DNA of 64,000 nucleotides from Naegleria gruberi (Eukaryota): assembly GCA_000004985.1 (NCBI GenBank), contig GG738861.1; one strand, 5' to 3'. Every line of letters starts with the position of its first letter. Within the stretch, counting starts at the first letter, position 1. Of the stretch, positions 16,380 to 24,399 are shown piece by piece. The notes beneath the pieces are model-generated. The model did no database searches. It was not told where the DNA came from and saw only the letters and a list, made by a program, of their open reading frames with translations. The position numbers were made by a program, and so were the translations under genes.

Positions 16380-17626
16380 GGTATAGTGATTGTAAACTTG
16401 GCACAACAAGTTGTGAAAAGCTTCAGAAGTATTCCAACTTTCAACTATTGAAAATAATTGTTTGAATTTTCTCTATGGAGTGTGTACTTTCAAAATTTCA
16501 ATTAATATTGATGAGGGTGGACAAACGCGCTGAAGCAAATCGCTTATTAGCACAATTTCTGAATGCGGTCAAACTTTCGAATAAATTCTGAGGATCTAAG
16601 AGTGGGAATTTTTCAATTCAAAACACAAAAGAAAATGAGTAAAAAGTATAACATTGGTATTATTGGTGCAGGTAATATTGGATCTGCATTGGCCAAACAT
16701 TTGGTTGCTTTGGGTCATTCAGTTGTTATTGCAAATTCTCGTGGTCCTCAAACTTTGATCGAAGTTGAAAAGGAAACAGGAGCAAAGGCAGTTCAAATCT
16801 CTGAAACAATCAAAGACATTGTCATTGTAACCATTCCATTCAAAAATATTGAACAATTACCTAAAGATTTATTTAGAAATGCTCCAAAAGATTTGGTCAT
16901 TATTGATACTAATAATTATTATCCAGGATTTAGAGATGCTCCAATTGAATCGTTGGATAAACTTGAATTAACTCATAGTGAATGGGTTTCCAAAACAATT
17001 GGAAGATCAGTTGTTAAGGTTTTTAACAATATTTCAACCTACAGTTTGAAATTCAAGCCAACTCAAGATAAAAAACACAGAGTGGCTCTTCCAATTGCAG
17101 GAGATGATGAAAAGGCTAAGGCAATTGTCTTTGATTTGGTTGACCAAATTGGTTTTGATCCAGTTGATGCAGGTTCTTTGAAAGATTCTTGGAGACAACA
17201 TCCAGGAACTCCTTCCTATGGTTGTGACTATGGCAAGGAAGAATTGCAAGAAAAATTGAAACAAGCTGATCAATCTCTCTCACTTAAAAAACTTCAACAA
17301 GCTTTCGTTCTCTATGGACAAGCAGTTGAACAGTTCAATAAGGAGAAGGGAAAGGAGTGGACAATGGTAGAATATCTCTTACAAGGAGGAGAAGAGTTCA
17401 ATGATAAGTTTGTTGATATTCAACGTTCACTTTATCAATAAATATTCTATACGTGTTAGTGATACCAACATAAATTATCAATTCGTTGTTGCTTTTTACA
17501 CTTTTGCAAGTATATATAATTGAGAGAAATTCCAAGGCGAACCAACACACTTGGTGAAGCATAGTCATACATTGATTTTTGGTAGAGGACGTGTCGAATA
17601 CTTGATATGAGGTCAATATCATTTTT
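16380..17626. repeat. Inverted repeat copy A (~1.25 kb), partner at 41262..42440
   Basis: The reverse complement of 41262–42440 aligns base-for-base apart from scattered substitutions and one 58-bp indel (extra sequence about 17489–17546 in copy A). It spans ~190 bp upstream, the whole F420-reductase-like ORF, and ~185 bp downstream. Confidence 0.8.
16635..17441 (+). CDS. NADPH-dependent F420 reductase-like / COG2085 dinucleotide-binding oxidoreductase, copy 1 (intronless, prokaryote-type)
   Basis: N-terminal Rossmann motif IGIIGAGNIGSALAKHL, VVIDTNN and DAG motifs match the PF03807 F420_oxidored family. It differs from copy 2 at 4–5 aa. Confidence 0.8.
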   Translation: MSKKYNIGIIGAGNIGSALAKHLVALGHSVVIANSRGPQTLIEVEKETGAKAVQISETIKDIVIVTIPFKNIEQLPKDLFRNAPKDLVIIDTNNYYPGFRDAPIESLDKLELTHSEWVSKTIGRSVVKVFNNISTYSLKFKPTQDKKHRVALPIAGDDEKAKAIVFDLVDQIGFDPVDAGSLKDSWRQHPGTPSYGCDYGKEELQEKLKQADQSLSLKKLQQAFVLYGQAVEQFNKEKGKEWTMVEYLLQGGEEFNDKFVDIQRSLYQ

Positions 17627-20062
17627 CAATTCATCTGAGGCATATTTAAGAGCTATAGGACAGATATCAAGTACTTTCTTGAAGAATTCACGATTTCCTT
17701 TGAGTCTTTCAGAAATAAATTGTAAATTTTGGAATTTTTCCTCAGCTGTAAGGAGTGACAATACGAAGTCTCCATCATCTCTGAAATGGGGTGGAACATG
17801 TTCGAGTACTTGGTTTGTTATTTCATTAGATCCAATAATTACGCTCTCCGTAATCTGATTTGCATCTAAATACTCTATGATGGGTATTAATCTACAAATA
17901 CCTTCCAAAAATGAAATATCTTGTTTAAGATTTTCTGGAAATTGAGTAAAATCAAGCATGTAACAGTCTCGTGTTTGGTAAATCAGATATATGGCGTTTG
18001 AAACATCATACTCAAAGACATGTATCCATTGTTGAGTTAAACTTGGAGGAAATTTGAATTCACAAGTTTGTACATTGGTTTCCTCTTCATGATAAGAATA
18101 CACCATTGAGAGAATTGGATAGGTAAATATGTCCTCAACATGGAAGTTCATTCGCTTCACTTCTTGCATGACAAATTCTCTATCCATTAACAACTGAGCA
18201 CCAGCAAAGTATAACGGCTCTCTTGTAATGTTACTTGTTTCAGACATGGTTTGGTAAATATCCAATTGTTCTTCCTTATTTTCTATAAGATGATAGTCAA
18301 ATATCTTGTGAGGAGCTTGGTTACATTCTATTAAAAGCTTCTTTACAAGTTTTGTATTTGCTCTCAATCGTGGGGATGCATAACGAAAGAGGTCAACTTC
18401 ACCATACTTGACAACTTTCTCAATAAACTCTTCATTGTCTCTTAAAGATTGAGGGAAAATTTGCAAGATTTTGCTCTTGGATTTGAGAGGGAGAGTTCTA
18501 TATAGTGCTGGTATGCAACCACTTGCTATTTGGAAATCCAATCTCACAGCCTCTGAGAAGTGTGGATAAATCTCTGCTTTCTGTTCGATGCAATGTCTAC
18601 ACAGTTCAAGACTATTTCTAATACATTCTGGTGCATGTTTGATATTCAAGTCTAAAACGAAAAATTTACGATAAAGTGAAATGTCAGATCTGATTTCTTC
18701 TCCAAATAAATCAAATATGTCGTTGTAGGGAGTCAACATTGAATCTGCAACTTCCTTTGAGTTTCTAATTTTGTCAGAGGCAAATCGTATTGCATTCTCA
18801 GCCCCATAAACTTTCGAATGAATTGCAATATTTACCACTTCAATGTTATTTCGAATATCTTCAGAAGCAAAGGCAAGGGCCTCAGGGAATTTGTCAACAA
18901 TTTGTGAAACCAGTTCTATATCATTCTTCCAATGATGAGGCATTAGTTGTAATAAACACCCTTCAATAGAGAGCATTTGTTTCAAAGTGTCAGTACTCAA
19001 TTTTTCGTAATGTTCTATTGGTACTACTGTTGGTGATATCAAATTGGCATCCACAAGTTTTTTCCAAAATTCAAAATCGAAAGCATCACAATATTTGAAA
19101 AGTTGAACTTGTAGACCATATCTCTTGATCCAATCAAACATGAAATCACAATCTTGGGTGAGAGTAGAATTCATTAGAAATTCCAATGATCCACATTCCA
19201 ATATAAATTCAGGATCATTACGCCAACCAAAAGGTACAATCTTCATAAATTGTGAAGTACCTTTCCCACTCTTCAATGCCTCAATAACGAATGCCTGTTC
19301 TGGCCATGTCTTTCTCAAAAAGAAAATAACCTTTGGATTAGATCTAATGGCCTCCAACACTATCTCTCTATAACTTGTAATACTTTTGCAAGTTGACTTA
19401 ATTCCATACTGATATGCTAACCAAGCTTCAGAATGTAGTGGAATAAAATTGATCAGCCTATTCGGATTCTTAAACAAACTAATCAGTCCTTGCTGTGGCT
19501 TATTAGAGAAATCACACTTGTACAATACATCTTTCAGTTTTGGATCTTTCTTCAAGCTCTCAATATTTAAAGTCATATTGATAACATCCAAGTCACCTCT
19601 CAACCTCTCTGAAGCATATCGAAAGGCACTCTGGTGATGTTTTACACATTCCATCACAAATTCCTTATCATCCTTCAATTCCTCACTCGCAAATTTCATC
19701 AACAATCCTCTCTCCTTCACAACAGCTAACATATGAAACCTATCATTTGGAAATGGAATTGGATTCTGTTTAATGTACTTGATCACATAGGTCCAATCAT
19801 TCCGATGCAAACTAACAAGTTGATACAAGTATTCATAATTTTGCAGAGTATTCATTCGGGTTGTATGGTACCTATTTTTCAGACCGTTTAAACATTTTAA
19901 TGAAAAAGATTGATCATTGCCATCATCGTCATCATTATCGGCACCATTCGATGATGAATAATGATGAAAGATACCATCTATGAGAATTATTTTGGTGCTC
20001 ATTTTTTTTTTGATTTTAAAACATTGAAATTCTTTATTGGGAATTTGTTTCCTTATTGGCAT
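17456..20062 (-). CDS. DUF4116 repeat-containing protein (868 aa)
   Basis: At least six DUF4116-like repeat units (e.g. DKEFVMECVKHHQSAFRYASERLRGD, PEALAFASEDIRNNIEVV, NEEFIEKVVKYGEVDLFRYASPRLRAN). The alternative ATG at 20002 follows a poly-T tract. The last ~56 codons lie inside inverted-repeat copy A. Confidence 0.65.
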   Translation of the reverse strand: MPIRKQIPNKEFQCFKIKKKMSTKIILIDGIFHHYSSSNGADNDDDDGNDQSFSLKCLNGLKNRYHTTRMNTLQNYEYLYQLVSLHRNDWTYVIKYIKQNPIPFPNDRFHMLAVVKERGLLMKFASEELKDDKEFVMECVKHHQSAFRYASERLRGDLDVINMTLNIESLKKDPKLKDVLYKCDFSNKPQQGLISLFKNPNRLINFIPLHSEAWLAYQYGIKSTCKSITSYREIVLEAIRSNPKVIFFLRKTWPEQAFVIEALKSGKGTSQFMKIVPFGWRNDPEFILECGSLEFLMNSTLTQDCDFMFDWIKRYGLQVQLFKYCDAFDFEFWKKLVDANLISPTVVPIEHYEKLSTDTLKQMLSIEGCLLQLMPHHWKNDIELVSQIVDKFPEALAFASEDIRNNIEVVNIAIHSKVYGAENAIRFASDKIRNSKEVADSMLTPYNDIFDLFGEEIRSDISLYRKFFVLDLNIKHAPECIRNSLELCRHCIEQKAEIYPHFSEAVRLDFQIASGCIPALYRTLPLKSKSKILQIFPQSLRDNEEFIEKVVKYGEVDLFRYASPRLRANTKLVKKLLIECNQAPHKIFDYHLIENKEEQLDIYQTMSETSNITREPLYFAGAQLLMDREFVMQEVKRMNFHVEDIFTYPILSMVYSYHEEETNVQTCEFKFPPSLTQQWIHVFEYDVSNAIYLIYQTRDCYMLDFTQFPENLKQDISFLEGICRLIPIIEYLDANQITESVIIGSNEITNQVLEHVPPHFRDDGDFVLSLLTAEEKFQNLQFISERLKGNREFFKKVLDICPIALKYASDELKNDIDLISSIRHVLYQKSMYDYASPSVLVRLGISLNYIYLQKCKKQQRIDNLCWYH

Positions 20063-20296
20063 ACCAATTAGGATAAAAGGGAAAAGAAGTAATTAAGGTT
20101 TGAAGTTCTATAGTACTTGATGTTTACAAAAATCAATCAATTCCCTTGCTGGAATGTCTTGAGGATATTTCGATGAGAAATCTTGCAATTCAAAAACAGC
20201 CTCCTTGAACTGAGATCCACCAATCAAATCAACGGCCTTATTATACTGAATCCATTTTCCTTTCTTTTCCTTTGCTTCCAATTCGTACATCCATTC

Positions 20297-22673
20297 TTAA
20301 TGTGTGTGATATTTGTCCATAAAGTCAATTTCAAAAAAAACAATTGAAACAACCAACTTACCATCCATTGCCACATCATTTCTCTCTCCAATTTCATAAA
20401 CTGCAACATTATCCTTTCCAAACTTATCATATGAAATCCCAAACACAAAATTATTCTTATCAAAGGTGGCTAGCTCTGCATTTGCAATGAATCGATTCTG
20501 ATATTGCTTTTCAATTTCATCTCTCACACGTTTGGTGACCAGTATCGACACTTCATATCTTGAGGCCAAATCTGCCATACACTGAATATTTCCATTGATT
20601 GGTCCCATTATTGTGAAGGATTTGTAGTTTTTGGTACCAACATTTCCAGTCATGGATTTTTGGCTATCAATGGTGGTACTGAAAATAATGGTTCTGTTGC
20701 TCCATCGTTTCTTTAACTCTTCTGATTTCTTGATAAGAGTTTCGGCTGTTGAGAGGGCTTTCGAAATGTGTGAGGGACAATCTGAGGCTGAATTCCAAGA
20801 CATTGTAATGAATCCATTTTCAAAATTGCCGATTTGTCCCTTTGAAGTTTTGGTTGTTTGTTCCAATAGGGTGAAAACTTCAGACGAAATTTGAATGATT
20901 TCATTCGAATTTAGGTTTTCACACAGGTGAAACTTGAATCCAAGTATTGAAATATCTCTACATTCCAATCCAAGATCGAATTTTGAAATAGATTGAGTAT
21001 TCTTCAAGCTCATCATTGATTCTTCGGTTTTGGAAACTTGCCTTGAAGGTCTTGAACTTTTGGACATGAAGGAGGTTCGAGAGGCCAGTTCAGCATTTGA
21101 AGATTGTTGGTCATCATTGTGTTTTTCATTGGTTGGCAGGTTTTCTACACCCTTCTTATCTAATTCCTGTAAGAGATGAGGTGGAAGGAAAGCTCTGTAT
21201 AGTCTGAGTCTTTCCACTAAAAAGACGAAACTTGTTTGAATTGTAGAAACTTCAGAAAAGAATGAATTCTTAACATGAATAGAATCCAGATCCATATTCG
21301 CAACTGAAGCAAACATGACCACCAAATCATAGAATGGTTTGATTATCCTAACTGAGAATACAGCTCCAGAAATTCCTCCAATTGAAACAATGAAAACACT
21401 CAACAATAAAGCAACCACAATTGCAATTATCATTTGTCCAAGATAGAACCATTGAGGCACTGCCAAGATAAGCGTCCAATCCAAGTCTTGAGCAGTACAA
21501 ACTCTTACCAAGCTCACATAATTGGAATCCAATGGAAATGAAGCCATTTCATTACACGGAATACTAGTCAACTTGCCATATTTGTCATAGATACTATTGG
21601 ACACTTGCTTAATAGTTGGTTCTCCAAATTGACTACCTTTGTATCTATTATATTTGTATTGATTAATCTTTTCAAATACAGGAATATCAGGAAAGCTCGC
21701 TGCGAACTTTGTATTAGATTCCAAACTATTCCAACTTACTTGCAATAATATATTCAGTAGAAGTTTCCAACACAAATGCAACAGATCCAGTCAAATGTAC
21801 AATTGCCTCCTTCAAATAGGTAGAAAACGATTCCACACTCAAATCATACATAAACCAAGAGGCCAACTGTGTAGGATCTGTTGCATTTGGCACACTCGTC
21901 ACAATGGTCATGAAAACAATCGAATAACTGATATAACTTGGCACAAATGATGTTTTCCCCACTCGTGCACTTGCCCACTCAATTCCACTCAATCCATATC
22001 TCCTATCAATCTCATCTGGCTCACTATTTCTCACACAATATTCATTCTTGGCAAAGTCGTTACATTTCCATAGATAGGTTTCGTTTCTCGGATTGATTCC
22101 ATCCCACATGGAGAAGAAGAAAGTCTCCTCACCAACATAAATGCCAACACTATTCCTCTCGATATCTCCCATGTACATGGTCACTGCTACATCTGGTCTC
22201 AATTCTGATTCCAATTTGTATAATTGATAGGTCCAGTCAGAGACCAAATCGAAATTCCTAATGTCAAAGTTTCGTCTCATTAAATGGTTGACAGTTTGAG
22301 CCATTTGAACAATTTCATCGAGTGTTGTAAAAATGTGGGTCTGTAATTTTGTAAATTCGTGGTCTCTGTTTTGAGCAGTCAATTGGGAGAGACTCACTCC
22401 AAATGAGCTAGCCCATACAATGGTAATGATGGCAACAGAAACGAGAATGACAGTGCTGAGCATGAGGATGAGGCAAAATCTTACTGAACGATAGAAACCA
22501 TTTTTTTGTTGTTGGTGACTAGTTTCGTCCAGCAGAAATTGTTCTTGGTCTTCCTCTTGATGGGTCGAGTCCTTATCATTGGTTTTGTACTTTGAGGAAG
22601 AAATGGGAGCGACTCTTGTCATTTTGTTTTTTTTTTGAATTTTGTTATCTCCAGTTGTAGCGAATAAAGACAT
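20297..22673 (-). CDS. Receptor-type class-III nucleotidyl-cyclase-like protein (TM – extracellular sensor domain – TM – degenerate cyclase homology domain); two ORF frames with an unresolved junction near 21726–21781
   Basis: Topology: N-terminal TM (FCLILMLSTVILVSVAIITIVWA), ~350-aa extracytoplasmic domain, second TM (MIIAIVVALLLSVFIVSIGG), then RDISILGFKF...GQIGNFENGFITMSWN resembling the cyclase core RxVTVLFADIVGFT...GDAxMA but lacking the metal-binding Asp residues. The two reading frames overlap; a GTAAGT sits at the junction, but no simple GT-AG intron restores the frame. Confidence 0.45.
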
Positions 22674-22982: not shown

Positions 22983-24018
22983 TTATGTCCTCTTAGAATC
23001 CAGAAATATCCATCCAATCCCCAAGCTATCACAATAATGAACACTCACATGATGATAAACTCCCGACTTGTATGAGAACAGATCACGATAGACAGCAATG
23101 GCTACTTGCACAGAACCATGAGTTTTGATTTCAGTCATAATCTCAACCATGTTTTCTAATTTCTTAGCAGCTGCTGCTTTGTAAAATTTGGAAGTTTGTC
23201 CTGGAACTGTGCATTTGGAAGGACAATGGCCAACTGTACCATTTCCAGATGAATATGGAACACAAGAATCAGTTGGAATACCTACAGAGACGAGGAATTG
23301 CCATGCAGCATGTAAAGTACCTCCTTAATATTTTTGATTTTTACAGTTATTGGAATTTTGTAAAGAATATTGTAAAATATTTTTCAAACGTACCATTACA
23401 AGCATTATTTTGAGCACTACATTCAAGCATGTATTCAGGTGATAGCATTACTTGAACGCTACCATTGGAATAAACACAAAATCTATCAGAGAGTACAGCA
23501 CTTGCCTGATATAATATTAATTTTCAATGAAATTCACACAAAACTTACAGAAACTATTTGAAATTATCAATTTCAGAGTGAATTAAACTTACATGCCCAA
23601 CAACTACCACATTGTTCTTGATTTCTGATTGGGGTAATGCAATGTGGCCATTCTTTTCTAGCATCAAATTGTTCTGGTAAATTTCTCACTTTGGTCAACT
23701 CTGCCCTGACATTAAATTTACTACGAGTTGGTTCAGTAAAATTATGAACACCCAAATACTACAAGATTACATCCCACTCTATTAGAAAATTAAATAAAAT
23801 TAAATACCAACCTTTCTAAAATCGGATAATTTCATATTATCAAAGTGTGGATAAGAAGTTGCTCTCCAACCAACTCCAACTTGTGAATTTACTTGTTCAA
23901 CAAGTGCTCTGGTTTGGATCGGTTTATTCCAGAAATCTTTCTCTTCGGCGAAAAGAAATGTGACAGCCAAGAGAAGCAAGCAGATAACAAGGAAACTATT
24001 GTAGACGAAACCGTTCAT
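22983..24018 (-). CDS. Cathepsin B-like papain-family cysteine protease, at least 5 exons, possibly C-terminally truncated
   Basis: Signal peptide, then [30 protein letters not shown] (active-site Cys), [25 protein letters not shown] and YKSGVYHHV blocks across GT-AG introns. After GVYHH the frame reads [12 protein letters not shown] and stops, with no ANSWN-type Asn block found. Confidence 0.6.
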
Positions 24019-24399
24019 TTTTTTTATCATATATGTGGTGGAAATGGAGAGATAGAGAGATGTAACATATCCATCGTGATAACTAATTATTTCTATGATA
24101 ATTCGAATAACAAAGCCAGGAATTGAAATAGAGTTCTTATCCTTGCACGTGATAACCATTCAATTATATACGAATAGTTTACAATAATCAAACTAATGGA
24201 CAATGATAAAAAAGATAGAAGGTTGTGTAAAACTTCCTGTGAACCAGCACACCTCTTCGATCTACTTTTCAATTCTTCAAGTCAATCAACAAATTTAACA
24301 CCTATTCCACAGATTAAAAACAAGTTGGTGTTGCTCTTTATCATAATGAAACCATTGGATAATATGAAGGAAAGGAAGAAGAAGAAGAATTTGTGTTTG

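What the first reader, a model, noticed from the sequence alone, without database searches (positions are those of the whole stretch)
20297..22673. Sensor-cyclase-like receptor with degenerate catalytic core and a frame discontinuity
The TM–large extracytoplasmic domain–TM–cyclase-homology layout resembles CHASE/dCache sensor cyclases, but the canonical metal-binding Asp residues of class III cyclases are absent (FKF in place of FADIVGF; NFENGF in place of IGDA). The N- and C-terminal halves are in different frames overlapping at 21726–21781, where a GTAAGT is present but no simple GT-AG intron restores the frame. This could be a pseudo-enzyme receptor, a non-canonical intron, or a recently frameshifted pseudogene.
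Basis: partly seen in the sequence, partly recalled or inferred. Interest (0 to 1): 0.55.

Follow-up and report, generated by a model that had tools for sequence, protein, structure and literature searches.

The report
Intron-split amoeba receptor with dead cyclase domain
The "frame break" is an ordinary 40-base intron inside an intact gene of a Naegleria-like amoeba; the gene encodes a membrane receptor with a dCache sensor outside the cell and, inside, a cyclase-type domain that has lost the residues needed to make cAMP or cGMP, as have all 77 full-length cyclase-type domains among the 150 closest family members.

Summary
A canonical GTAAGT…CAG intron of 40 nt (window 21739–21700, minus strand, phase 1) joins the two ORFs in frame. 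The junction (…YIIA|TSFPDIPV…) aligns gap-free with full-length Naegleria and Willaertia homologues. Three other homologous loci carry a 41–44 nt GTAAGT intron at the same codon. A second intron (20361–20296, 66 nt) adds a third exon, so the gene runs 22673–20108 and encodes 819 aa.

A metagenome contig that is 97.5% identical has the same structure. Against it dN/dS is 0.08 and exon indels are multiples of three, so this is not a pseudogene.

- **Architecture:** TM1, dCache ectodomain (AF2 pLDDT 93.5; all top Foldseek hits are dCache sensors), TM2, HAMP-like segment, disordered linker, class III cyclase-homology domain (family profile vs CyaB E=1e-22; Foldseek TM 0.77), TPR-like tail.
- **Catalytic residues:** canonical D/D/K/D/R are K567, G607, N603, S672 and M686. 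The phosphate-loop motif is deleted.
- **Family:** none of 77 family domains has the full set. Metal Asp1 is present in 2/77 and Arg in 0/77.

Relatives are already annotated as "adenylate/guanylate cyclase" in Naegleria. This is a new member of a known kind; the output is most likely non-catalytic (inferred).

The parts
21740..22673 (-). Exon 1 (ATG at 22673; aa 1-311 plus the first base of codon 312). Encodes the cytosolic N-tail, TM1 (aa 66-90, nt 22404-22478), the long stalk helix and the membrane-distal module of the dCache ectodomain.
   Evidence: ORF list. Hydropathy. Exon 1 aligns contiguously with full-length homologues, q26-399. AF2 of aa 88-311 gives pLDDT 93.5. Foldseek top hits are all dCache domains: KinD 4jgq, Tlp3 6w3r, PscC 6mni, TlpA, CqsR.
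21700..21739 (-). Intron 1: 40 nt, GTAAGT...CTAAT...CAG, phase 1. It explains the frame discontinuity at 21726-21781.
   Evidence: Removing it gives ...TEYIIA|TSFPDIPV... in frame. The junction aligns gap-free with 18 homologues. Same-position phase-1 GTAAGT introns occur in L002 (43 nt), L005 (44 nt) and L006 (41 nt). The Willaertia homologue is one uninterrupted ORF across the site. The same intron is present in the 97.5%-identical contig L001.
20362..21699 (-). Exon 2 (aa 312-757). Encodes the membrane-proximal dCache module (aa 313-395), TM2 (aa 398-428, nt 21350-21442), a HAMP-like segment (aa 429-490, nt 21164-21349), a disordered Ser/Asn/Gln-rich linker (aa ~496-547) and the cyclase-homology domain (aa 548-754, nt 20372-20992).
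   Evidence: AF2 of exon 2 gives pLDDT 86.1, with only the linker below 50. Foldseek finds CyaB 3r5g at E=3e-11 and TMt 0.77, then CyaC and Cya2. The family profile against PDB gives CyaB 9.7e-23. The profile of the HAMP-like segment has the NarQ HAMP as its best PDB hit, at E=0.056 only.
20576..20935 (-). Positions equivalent to the six canonical class III catalytic residues: K567 (metal Asp 1; nt 20933-20935), N603 (adenine Lys), G607 (metal Asp 2), S672 (specificity Asp), N682 (Asn, possibly retained), M686 (Arg; nt 20576-20578). The four residues of the GFT phosphate-loop position after K567-F568 are deleted.
   Evidence: Alignment of the window domain and 76 relatives with CyaB (3r5g) and Cya2 (2w01) through the family HMM. 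HMMER alignment to CyaB. The deletion relative to all relatives is visible.
20296..20361 (-). Intron 2: 66 nt, GTAAGT...TTAAG, phase 1.
   Evidence: Splicing gives ...NDVAMD|EWMYELEAKEKK..., which matches the family-wide DEWxYEL motif. Paralogue P0002 is continuous at this point. L001 has a 1-nt deletion inside this stretch, tolerated only if it is non-coding.
20108..20295 (-). Exon 3 (aa 758-819 plus stop TAG 20108-20110): conserved DEWxYEL motif and a TPR-like helical tail.
   Evidence: The tail is conserved in P0002 and across the family consensus. Relatives give weak TPR_2, TPR_14 and Fis1_TPR_C hits in the equivalent region.

Best explanation
The locus is one intact three-exon nuclear gene (minus strand, 22673..20108; 819 aa). 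The organism is a heterolobosean amoeba related to, but distinct from, Naegleria and Willaertia.

**Frame break.** It is a canonical 40-nt phase-1 spliceosomal intron. The position is conserved in other family members.

**Protein.** It is a receptor with both termini inside the cell. In order it has:
- TM1;
- an extracellular double-Cache (dCache) sensor with two conserved Cys pairs;
- TM2;
- a HAMP-like transducer ending in the conserved YRxFIPxHLL element;
- a disordered linker;
- a class III cyclase-homology domain (CHD);
- a DEWxYEL/TPR-like tail.

**Shown here.** The CHD keeps the cyclase fold. It lacks both metal-binding Asp, the substrate Lys/Asp pair, the transition-state Arg and the phosphate-loop motif. 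The full catalytic set is missing from every family domain examined, yet the domain is under purifying selection.

**Inferred mechanism.**
- A ligand binds the membrane-distal dCache module.
- The signal passes through TM2 and the HAMP-like segment to a CHD dimer.
- The CHD dimer acts as a non-catalytic output. The options are heterodimerising with and silencing or regulating active cyclases, or presenting the TPR-like tail to partners. It does not synthesise cAMP or cGMP.
For: **Gene model**
- Splicing restores the frame.
- The junction aligns gap-free with 18 homologues.
- The exon 1 product matches the same full-length proteins contiguously.
- An intron sits at the same codon in L002, L005 and L006.
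- The Willaertia homologue is intronless.
- 9 of the 20 GTAAGT sites in the window lie at ORF ends, with acceptors 36-110 nt downstream.

**Not a pseudogene**
- L001 is 97.5% identical and has the same structure.
- It differs by 39 synonymous and 12 nonsynonymous codons, and its exon indels are 6 and 3 nt.
- A 1-nt indel occurs only in intron 2.
- dN/dS is 0.08 overall and 0.14 in the CHD.

**Domains**
- dCache.
- CHD.
- 18 of 53 wider relatives hit Pfam Guanylate_cyc and 4 of 53 hit dCache_1.

**Degenerate core**
- The signature in the order metal Asp 1, metal Asp 2, adenine Lys, specificity Asp, Asn, Arg is K-G-N-S-N-M, against the canonical D-D-K-D-N-R.
- Across the family, Asp1 is present in 2/77, Lys in 2/77 and Arg in 0/77.

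**Organism**
- The best named relatives are Willaertia magna and Naegleria spp., at 23-37% identity.
Against: - No transcript data are available, so splicing is inferred from sequence and comparative evidence only.
- Loss of activity is inferred from residues, not measured.
- Asn682 may be retained, and 35 of 77 relatives keep the second Asp. Some residual or unconventional chemistry cannot be excluded.
- The HAMP assignment rests on position, a conserved Pro and Glu, predicted helices and a weak NarQ match (E=0.056).
- The ligand and the downstream partners are unknown.
- The dimeric state was not modelled.
Confidence: 0.8

Rival explanations
1. Recently frameshifted pseudogene: a once-continuous ORF broken by a 1-nt indel and now decaying.
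For: The two ORFs are offset by one frame and overlap. The CHD has lost its catalytic residues and carries a private 4-residue deletion in the phosphate loop.
Against: - A canonical 40-nt intron accounts for the offset.
- The same interruption is present in a 97.5%-identical independent assembly and, at the same codon, in three divergent homologues.
- dN/dS is 0.08, and 0.09 and 0.05 for the two exons separately.
- All exon indels are multiples of 3.
- The catalytic loss is shared across the family and is therefore old.
Confidence: 0.02
2. Non-canonical intron, programmed +1 frameshift or stop-codon read-through joins the halves.
For: The N-frame ends in TAG immediately after the GTAAGT.
Against: A GT-AG solution exists. 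It has the donor hexamer (GTAAGT) found at the other candidate intron donors in the window, a CTAAT branch-like motif 14 nt upstream of the AG, and a length similar to the intron at the same codon in the homologous loci. Nothing unusual is needed.
Confidence: 0.02
3. A working nucleotide cyclase after all. Either it uses a non-canonical active site, or it contributes one half-site in a heterodimer with a complementary partner (as C1/C2 of mammalian adenylyl cyclases, or the alpha/beta subunits of soluble guanylyl cyclase).
For: - The CHD fold is well preserved, with motifs under purifying selection (GNxGT, KxFTIxG, the R of FxxRP).
- Asn is retained in 44/77 and the second Asp in 35/77 relatives.
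- Relatives are annotated 'adenylate/guanylate cyclase'.
Against: - The first metal Asp is replaced by Y, K, H, L, R, N or F with no conserved substitute.
- Arg is replaced by Leu or Met in 62/77 and is absent from all 77, and Lys is nearly always absent.
- The protein is therefore neither C1-like (needs both Asp) nor C2-like (needs Lys/Asp and Asn/Arg). Neither half-site of a heterodimer would be complete.
- The window protein additionally lacks the GFT phosphate-loop position.
Confidence: 0.13
4. Two separate genes: a secreted or membrane sensor protein (exon 1) and an independent membrane-anchored cyclase-like protein (exon 2).
For: Prokaryote-style gene callers split it this way in the metagenome contigs.
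Against: - The dCache fold is split by the break. Its membrane-proximal module lies in exon 2.
- Full-length homologues cover both halves in one chain.
- The Willaertia homologue is one ORF.
Confidence: 0.01

Closest known systems
Naegleria and Willaertia predicted receptor 'adenylate/guanylate cyclases': W. magna KAL9645173.1 (P0011), N. lovaniensis XP_044550760.1 (P0003), N. gruberi XP_002673367.1 (P0024, named 'adenylate/guanylate cyclase')
   Same: They share the full architecture (N-tail, TM, ~300-aa ectodomain, TM, HAMP-like segment with YRxFIPxHLL, linker, CHD, DEWxYEL/TPR-like tail) and align end to end. They have the same non-canonical catalytic signature.
   Different: Identity is only 23-37% over the regions aligned. 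The window protein has a private 4-residue deletion at the phosphate loop. The gene carries two short introns, whereas the Willaertia homologue has none.
Bacterial class III adenylyl/guanylyl cyclase catalytic domains: P. aeruginosa CyaB (3r5g), Synechocystis Cya2 (2w01), Spirulina CyaC (1wc0)
   Same: Same fold and detectable profile homology: E=9.7e-23 and 5.5e-19; Foldseek 3e-11, TMt 0.77.
   Different: The metal-binding Asp pair, the substrate Lys/Asp and the catalytic Arg are absent, and the phosphate loop is shortened. The window sequence alone does not reach any Pfam Guanylate_cyc score.
Bacterial dCache_1 sensor domains of chemoreceptors and kinases: B. subtilis KinD 4jgq, C. jejuni Tlp3 6w3r, P. 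syringae PscC 6mni
   Same: A long stalk helix plus a membrane-distal PAS-like module, followed by a proximal module, lying between two TM helices. All top Foldseek hits belong to this class.
   Different: There is no sequence-level match (Pfam, or profile against PDB), and identity is about 10%. By eye, the R-x-W-Y part of the amino-acid-binding motif of dCache_1AA sensors is not present; this comparison rests on my own knowledge of the motif and was not formally tested. Two invariant Cys pairs suggest eukaryote-style extracellular disulfides.
Receptors built on degenerate nucleotide-cyclase-type domains, such as LapD (TM, periplasmic domain, TM, HAMP, degenerate GGDEF-EAL), and the non-catalytic pseudo-symmetric site of mammalian adenylyl cyclase C1/C2 and soluble guanylyl cyclase (from general knowledge, not tested here)
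   Same: The concept is the same: a cyclase-type domain kept for regulation or binding rather than catalysis, coupled through HAMP to an extracytoplasmic domain.
   Different: This is a different domain family (class III CHD, not GGDEF). No ligand or partner is known here. In C1/C2 and soluble guanylyl cyclase one composite site remains active, whereas here neither half-site is complete.

Membership tests
Class III nucleotidyl cyclase catalytic domain (CHD; Pfam PF00211) | Cyclase-homology fold and profile-level homology | tested here: met
   The family profile A5 against PDB gives CyaB 9.7e-23, Cya2 5.5e-19 and 60+ cyclase chains. The AF2 model against PDB gives CyaB at E=3e-11 and TMt 0.77, and all top 50 hits are cyclases.
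Class III nucleotidyl cyclase catalytic domain (CHD; Pfam PF00211) | The sequence itself passes the Pfam Guanylate_cyc gathering score | tested here: not met
   The window protein has no hit at E<=10. Of ten close relatives, six show no Guanylate_cyc hit at E<=0.1 and three (P0018, P0015, P0032) score 14-20.9 bits against a cut-off of 21.9. 18 of 53 wider relatives hit at E<=0.01.
Class III nucleotidyl cyclase catalytic domain (CHD; Pfam PF00211) | Two metal-binding Asp residues (beta1 FxDIxGFT and beta4 GD) | tested here: not met
   K567 and G607 occupy these positions, and the GFT loop is deleted. Across the family Asp1 is present in 2/77 and Asp2 in 35/77.
Class III nucleotidyl cyclase catalytic domain (CHD; Pfam PF00211) | Substrate-specifying pair (Lys/Asp for ATP, Glu/Cys-type for GTP) | tested here: not met
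   N603 and S672. The family shows N/S/Q/H/T and N/S/Q/K at these positions.
Class III nucleotidyl cyclase catalytic domain (CHD; Pfam PF00211) | Transition-state Asn and Arg (VNxAxR) | tested here: not met
   The Arg position is M686, with Leu or Met in 62/77 relatives and Arg in 0/77. The Asn is ambiguous: N682 aligns only if a 1-residue insertion is allowed.
Class III nucleotidyl cyclase catalytic domain (CHD; Pfam PF00211) | cAMP or cGMP synthesis | not testable with these tools
   This needs an enzyme assay.
dCache (double Cache / tandem PAS-like) extracytoplasmic sensor | Long N-terminal helix plus a membrane-distal PAS-like alpha/beta module | tested here: met
   AF2 of aa 88-311 gives pLDDT 93.5 and pTM 0.86. 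There are 27 PDB hits at E<=1e-3; 26 are bacterial dCache/tandem-Cache sensor domains (KinD, Tlp3, TlpA, PscC, CqsR, CtaA) and one, 8irj, is described only as an orphan GPCR.
dCache (double Cache / tandem PAS-like) extracytoplasmic sensor | A second, membrane-proximal module leading into TM2, with the whole domain bracketed by two TM helices | tested here: met
   In the exon 2 model, residues 1-81 form strands and a helix at pLDDT 76-96 and run straight into the TM2 helix. TM1 is aa 66-90 and TM2 is aa 398-428. This proximal part of the model was not searched separately.
dCache (double Cache / tandem PAS-like) extracytoplasmic sensor | Match to the Pfam dCache_1 / MCP-like_PDC_1 models | tested here: not met
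   The window protein and its close relatives give none. The ectodomain profile against PDB gives nothing. 4 of 53 wider relatives hit dCache_1. P0066 and P0082, whose ectodomains match the window's weakly, hit MCP-like_PDC_1 below the cut-off.
HAMP domain | About 50 aa directly after TM2, two amphipathic helices with a connector, and a conserved Pro in AS1 and Glu at the start of AS2 | tested here: inconclusive
   P433 and E461 are invariant in the family. Helices are predicted. The best PDB hit of the profile is the NarQ HAMP over its full length, but only at E=0.056. There is no Pfam HAMP hit.
Spliceosomal GT-AG intron | GT...AG boundaries; removal restores a frame that matches homologues | tested here: met
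Spliceosomal GT-AG intron | Conserved position in homologues; non-coding pattern of change | tested here: met
   Phase-1 GTAAGT introns of 41-44 nt sit at the same codon in L002, L005 and L006. A 1-nt indel occurs in intron 2, whereas exon indels are 3 and 6 nt.
Spliceosomal GT-AG intron | A spliced transcript is observed | not testable with these tools
   No RNA data were available.
Pseudogene | Disabling lesions in the coding sequence and relaxed selection | tested here: not met
   The spliced CDS has no internal stop. dN/dS is 0.08 overall, 0.05 in the ectodomain and 0.14 in the CHD.

The most novel reading that the evidence does not exclude
The dCache-HAMP-CHD-DEWxYEL proteins of Heterolobosea form an old, expanded clade of true pseudo-cyclase receptors maintained by selection. 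More distant relatives appear in diplonemid transcriptomes. The exhaustive search found 74 cluster representatives at E<=1e-30, and none of the 77 domains examined has a complete catalytic set. In this reading the cyclase fold has been repurposed as a non-enzymatic signalling output. It could act as a dominant-negative or allosteric partner of active cyclases, as a nucleotide-binding module, or as a scaffold through the TPR-like tail. If so, a substantial part of the 81 or more 'cyclases' counted in Naegleria genomes (PMC9928731) would not make cyclic nucleotides. I found no paper describing this; the four literature searches aimed at it returned nothing relevant.
Probability: 0.5. Interest if true: 0.5.

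Novelty: new member of a known kind. Interest (0 to 1): 0.3.

Why it matters
For the scan, an apparent frameshift or pseudogene turns out to be a normal intron, and the genome turns out to be eukaryotic (heterolobosean) with 40-110 nt GTAAGT introns. ORF-based reading of this window will therefore split many genes.

Biologically the gene is one more member of the large receptor 'cyclase' expansion of Naegleria-type amoebae. The modestly interesting point is that this branch has lost the catalytic residues of class III cyclases while staying under purifying selection. Genome annotations and cyclase counts for these organisms, including the pathogen N. fowleri, may overstate their cAMP/cGMP-producing capacity. 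A dCache-coupled pseudo-cyclase output module would be open to experimental test.

Tried and rejected
- **Pfam on the window sequences.** I scanned both ORFs, the separate domains and paralogue P0002 at E<=10 and found nothing relevant.
- **PDB with the window CHD alone (phmmer).** Nothing.
- **PDB with the ectodomain family profile.** Only a chance lectin hit at E=1.5.
- **Word-indexed homologue search.** It returned only two proteins, both from one metagenome. The exhaustive HMMER search was needed to find the family.
- **Spliced 819-aa protein.** I used exon 2 plus P0002 instead. The structure jobs were likewise run on exact exon translations (aa 88-311 and aa 313-757), so the complete ectodomain was never modelled in one piece.
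- **Alternative acceptors for intron 1.** Acceptors at 103 or 118 nt also keep the frame, but they delete the conserved SFPDIPV block, so I rejected them.
- **Paralogues in the window.** tblastn and an HMM search of the six-frame translation found none.
- **Literature.** Searches for Naegleria cyclase catalytic residues, pseudo-cyclase or inactive cyclase domains, and the metagenome project PRJEB11402 gave nothing specific.
- **HAMP.** Only weak support, E=0.056.
Full report
**1. What is in the sequence**

On the minus strand there are two long ORFs in different frames. They run 22673..21726 (315 aa, ATG start) and 21781..20297 (494 aa), and they overlap at 21726-21781, where a GTAAGT is present.

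The window is AT-rich (32-36% GC) and densely packed with ORFs for typical eukaryotic nuclear proteins. These include NOC3/CBF, a CAF1B/HIR1 WD40 protein, a PPR protein, ubinuclein, an EF-hand protein and a DUF4116-repeat protein.

**2. The frame discontinuity is a canonical short intron**

- **Intron 1.** Reading the minus strand, the N-terminal frame runs ...GAA TAT ATT ATT GCA A|GTAAGTTGGAATAGTTTGGAATCTAATACAAAGTTCGCAG|CG AGC TTT CCT GAT ATT CCT... The bracketed stretch (window 21739..21700) is 40 nt, starts GTAAGT, ends CAG and lies in phase 1. Removing it joins the two frames exactly and gives ...TEYIIA-T-SFPDIPVFEK....
- **Intron 2.** A second GTAAGT at 20361 opens a 66-nt intron (20361..20296, ending TTAAG) that contains an in-frame stop. 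Splicing it gives ...NDVAMD-E-WMYELEAKEKKGKW... and adds a third exon down to the TAG at 20108-20110.
- **Full coding sequence.** It is 22673..21740 + 21699..20362 + 20295..20108, which is 2460 nt and 819 aa with no internal stop.

**3. Evidence that the introns are real**

(a) The spliced junction aligns without a gap against 18 homologues. Examples are N. lovaniensis ...TDYIVASSFPTIAV... and Willaertia ...TGYIIASSSSSLSF.... The exon 1 product matches those same proteins contiguously across the junction, at query 26-399.

(b) Three other homologous loci from metagenome assemblies have a phase-1 GTAAGT intron at exactly the same codon. These are L002 (43 nt, paralogue P0002), L005 (44 nt, P0004) and L006 (41 nt, P0013, from a different sample). 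Each splices to ...NYIVV-S-SFP[DE]IPV... or ...NYLIV-A-NDPTISF....

(c) The Willaertia magna homologue (P0011, GCA_041937235.1) is a single uninterrupted 803-codon ORF across the site.

(d) The window contains 20 GTAAGT hexamers. Nine lie at the end of an ORF of at least 60 codons, with an AG 36-110 nt downstream that opens another long ORF. Several of these candidate introns carry a CTAAT or GTAAC motif 10-20 nt before the AG. Short GTAAGT introns thus appear to be the usual kind in this window.

(e) Paralogue P0002 is continuous where intron 2 lies, and the DEWxYEL motif produced by splicing is conserved across the family.

**4. Not a pseudogene, not an assembly error**

A contig from an independent metagenome assembly (L001, ERR1078381) is 97.5% identical over the locus and has the same two interruptions.

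Against it the spliced CDS shows 39 synonymous and 12 nonsynonymous codon differences. Exon indels are 6 and 3 nt, and there is a 1-nt indel inside intron 2.

Nei-Gojobori dN/dS values are:

| Region | dN/dS |
|---|---|
| Whole CDS | 0.08 |
| Exon 1 | 0.09 |
| Exon 2 | 0.05 |
| Ectodomain | 0.05 |
| Cyclase-like domain | 0.14 |

Both halves, in the frames defined by the intron model, are under purifying selection.

**5. Organism and family**

The word-indexed search found only the near-identical metagenome protein and one paralogue at 32% identity. An exhaustive HMMER search used a two-sequence profile (exon 2 plus P0002). It found 3332 proteins at E<=1e-3 and 74 at E<=1e-30 among cluster representatives.

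The named top hits are Willaertia magna, Naegleria lovaniensis, N. gruberi and N. fowleri proteins of about 770-1000 aa. Their identity to the window protein is 23-37% over the regions aligned. UniProt or NCBI call some of them 'Guanylate cyclase domain-containing protein' or 'adenylate/guanylate cyclase'.

More distant members come from Percolomonas and from diplonemid transcriptomes. The window therefore comes from a heterolobosean that is related to, but not within, Naegleria or Willaertia.

**6. Domain anatomy**

- **Topology.** Hydropathy gives TM1 at aa 66-90 and TM2 at aa 398-428, with basic residues on the cytosolic sides of both.
- **Ectodomain.** AF2 of aa 88-311, using a family alignment, gave pLDDT 93.5 and pTM 0.86. 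Against the PDB, 26 of the 27 hits at E<=1e-3 are bacterial dCache or tandem-Cache sensor domains (KinD, Tlp3, TlpA, PscC, CqsR, CtaA). The remaining one, 8irj, is described only as an orphan GPCR.
- **Proximal module and disulfides.** The first ~81 residues of exon 2 model as the membrane-proximal module, running into TM2. Four Cys are invariant in the family ectodomain (C204, C213, C360, C379), which suggests two disulfides.
- **No sequence-level match.** No sequence method links the ectodomain to Cache. Only a few distant relatives give weak dCache_1 or PDC hits.
- **HAMP-like segment.** After TM2 comes a segment with invariant Pro433 and Glu461. Its best PDB match is the NarQ HAMP, but at E=0.056. 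It ends in the conserved YRxFIPxHLL element.
- **Linker.** A disordered low-complexity linker follows (pLDDT below 50).
- **C-terminal domain.** This is the cyclase-like domain treated in section 7.
- **Tail.** Exon 3 encodes a TPR-like tail (weak TPR hits in relatives).

**7. Cyclase homology and the catalytic core**

The window protein alone is invisible to Pfam and to PDB phmmer. None of the ten close relatives scanned reaches the Guanylate_cyc cut-off.

A 31-sequence family profile, however, hits solved class III cyclases. It finds CyaB 3r5g at 9.7e-23 and Cya2 2w01 at 5.5e-19, followed by bPAC and OaPAC, CyaC, mammalian AC5/8/9, sGC and others. The AF2 model of exon 2 (pLDDT 86.1) matches CyaB at E=3e-11 and TMt 0.77, and all top 50 hits are cyclases. 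Of 53 wider relatives, 18 hit Pfam Guanylate_cyc.

I mapped the domain onto CyaB and Cya2 through the family HMM. The assignment of catalytic roles comes from established knowledge of class III cyclases.

| Canonical role | Canonical residue | Window residue |
|---|---|---|
| Metal Asp 2 | D | G607 (in FENGF) |
| Adenine Lys | K | N603 |
| Specificity Asp | D | S672 |
| Transition-state Arg | R | M686 |
| Transition-state Asn | N | N682, aligned only if a 1-residue insertion is accepted |

The window protein (and L001) also lacks four residues at the GFT phosphate-loop position, which all relatives have.

Across 77 family domains the canonical D-D-K-D-N-R set is never complete. Asp1 occurs in 2/77 and is otherwise replaced by Y, K, H, L, R, N or F with no conserved substitute. 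Lys occurs in 2/77 and Arg in 0/77, where it is Leu or Met in 62. Asp2 occurs in 35/77 and Asn in 44/77.

It is an old, family-wide trait rather than recent decay.

**8. Mechanism**

*Shown here:* the gene structure, the topology, the dCache and CHD folds, the loss of catalytic residues and the purifying selection.

*Inferred:* a ligand binds the distal dCache module, and the signal passes through TM2 and the HAMP-like segment to a CHD dimer. The protein lacks both the 'C1-type' residues (the Asp pair) and the 'C2-type' residues (Lys/Asp, Arg). It cannot therefore complete either composite active site, even with a competent partner. The most likely output is non-catalytic:
- regulating or silencing active cyclases by heterodimerisation;
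- binding a nucleotide or other ligand in the former active-site groove;
- recruiting partners through the conserved DEWxYEL/TPR-like tail.

An unconventional catalytic activity cannot be excluded without an assay. I give it about 0.13.

**9. Comparison and novelty**

The closest known things are the following.
- The annotated Naegleria and Willaertia receptor 'cyclases' have the same architecture and the same degenerate signature.
- Bacterial class III cyclases share the fold but keep intact catalytic residues.
- Bacterial dCache sensors share the fold only.
- As a functional analogy, there are receptors built on degenerate cyclase-type domains (LapD) and the non-catalytic pseudo-site of C1/C2 cyclases. 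This comparison comes from general knowledge and was not tested here.

The gene is a new member of a known, already annotated kind. I found no paper noting that this branch lacks the catalytic residues. A Naegleria pangenome paper simply counts 'at least 81 cyclases' (PMC9928731). That family-level point is the only part with some novelty.

**10. Verdict**

Interest is low to moderate (0.3).

Noticed in passing
window 17456-20062 (-): The immediately downstream neighbour is an 868-aa ORF made of at least 9 DUF4116 repeats (Pfam E=3.4e-57).
   Followed up: partly
window ~23000-24160 (-): A papain/cathepsin-B-like gene appears to be split into several ORFs by short introns; this rests on my reading of the sequence only. 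ORF 23573-23755 carries the CGSCWA active-site motif, and ORF 23800-24159 looks like the signal/pro-region. It was not modelled.
   Followed up: no
window 24167-24267 vs L001 ~250-262: The window has a ~100-nt segment just upstream of the cathepsin-like gene's ATG that is absent from the 97.5%-identical metagenome contig. The segment is bounded by AATTGAA direct repeats. It is an indel polymorphism in the 5' flank.
   Followed up: partly
window 2789(+), 25527(+), 51158(+), 46340(-), 26674(-), 16030(-), 8385(+): Further GTAAGT sites at ORF ends have acceptors 36-110 nt downstream that reopen long ORFs. They are probable short introns of other genes, several with CTAAT or GTAAC branch-like motifs. 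Any ORF-based reading of this window will split these genes.
   Followed up: partly
L002 3468-4931 (+), and the top hits: At least three more paralogues of this receptor (P0002, P0004 and others of ~450-600 aa) come from the same metagenome run, ERR1078381. Prokaryote-style gene calling truncated them at the same intron position. L002 also carries a VWA-domain gene next to its paralogue.
   Followed up: partly
P0048, P0070, P0082, P0146 and similar: A more distant branch of the family (~1150-1300 aa) has N-terminal ankyrin repeats in front of TM, ectodomain, TM and CHD. Other relatives carry NIT, PA, Bmp or NCD3G-type ectodomains. The degenerate CHD module is thus combined with many different sensor domains.
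   Followed up: no
window aa 496-547 (nt ~20993-21148): A Ser/Asn/Gln/Lys-rich low-complexity insert lies between the conserved YRxFIPxHLL element and the first strand of the CHD. It is predicted disordered (pLDDT below 50) and is variable in length across the family.
   Followed up: no
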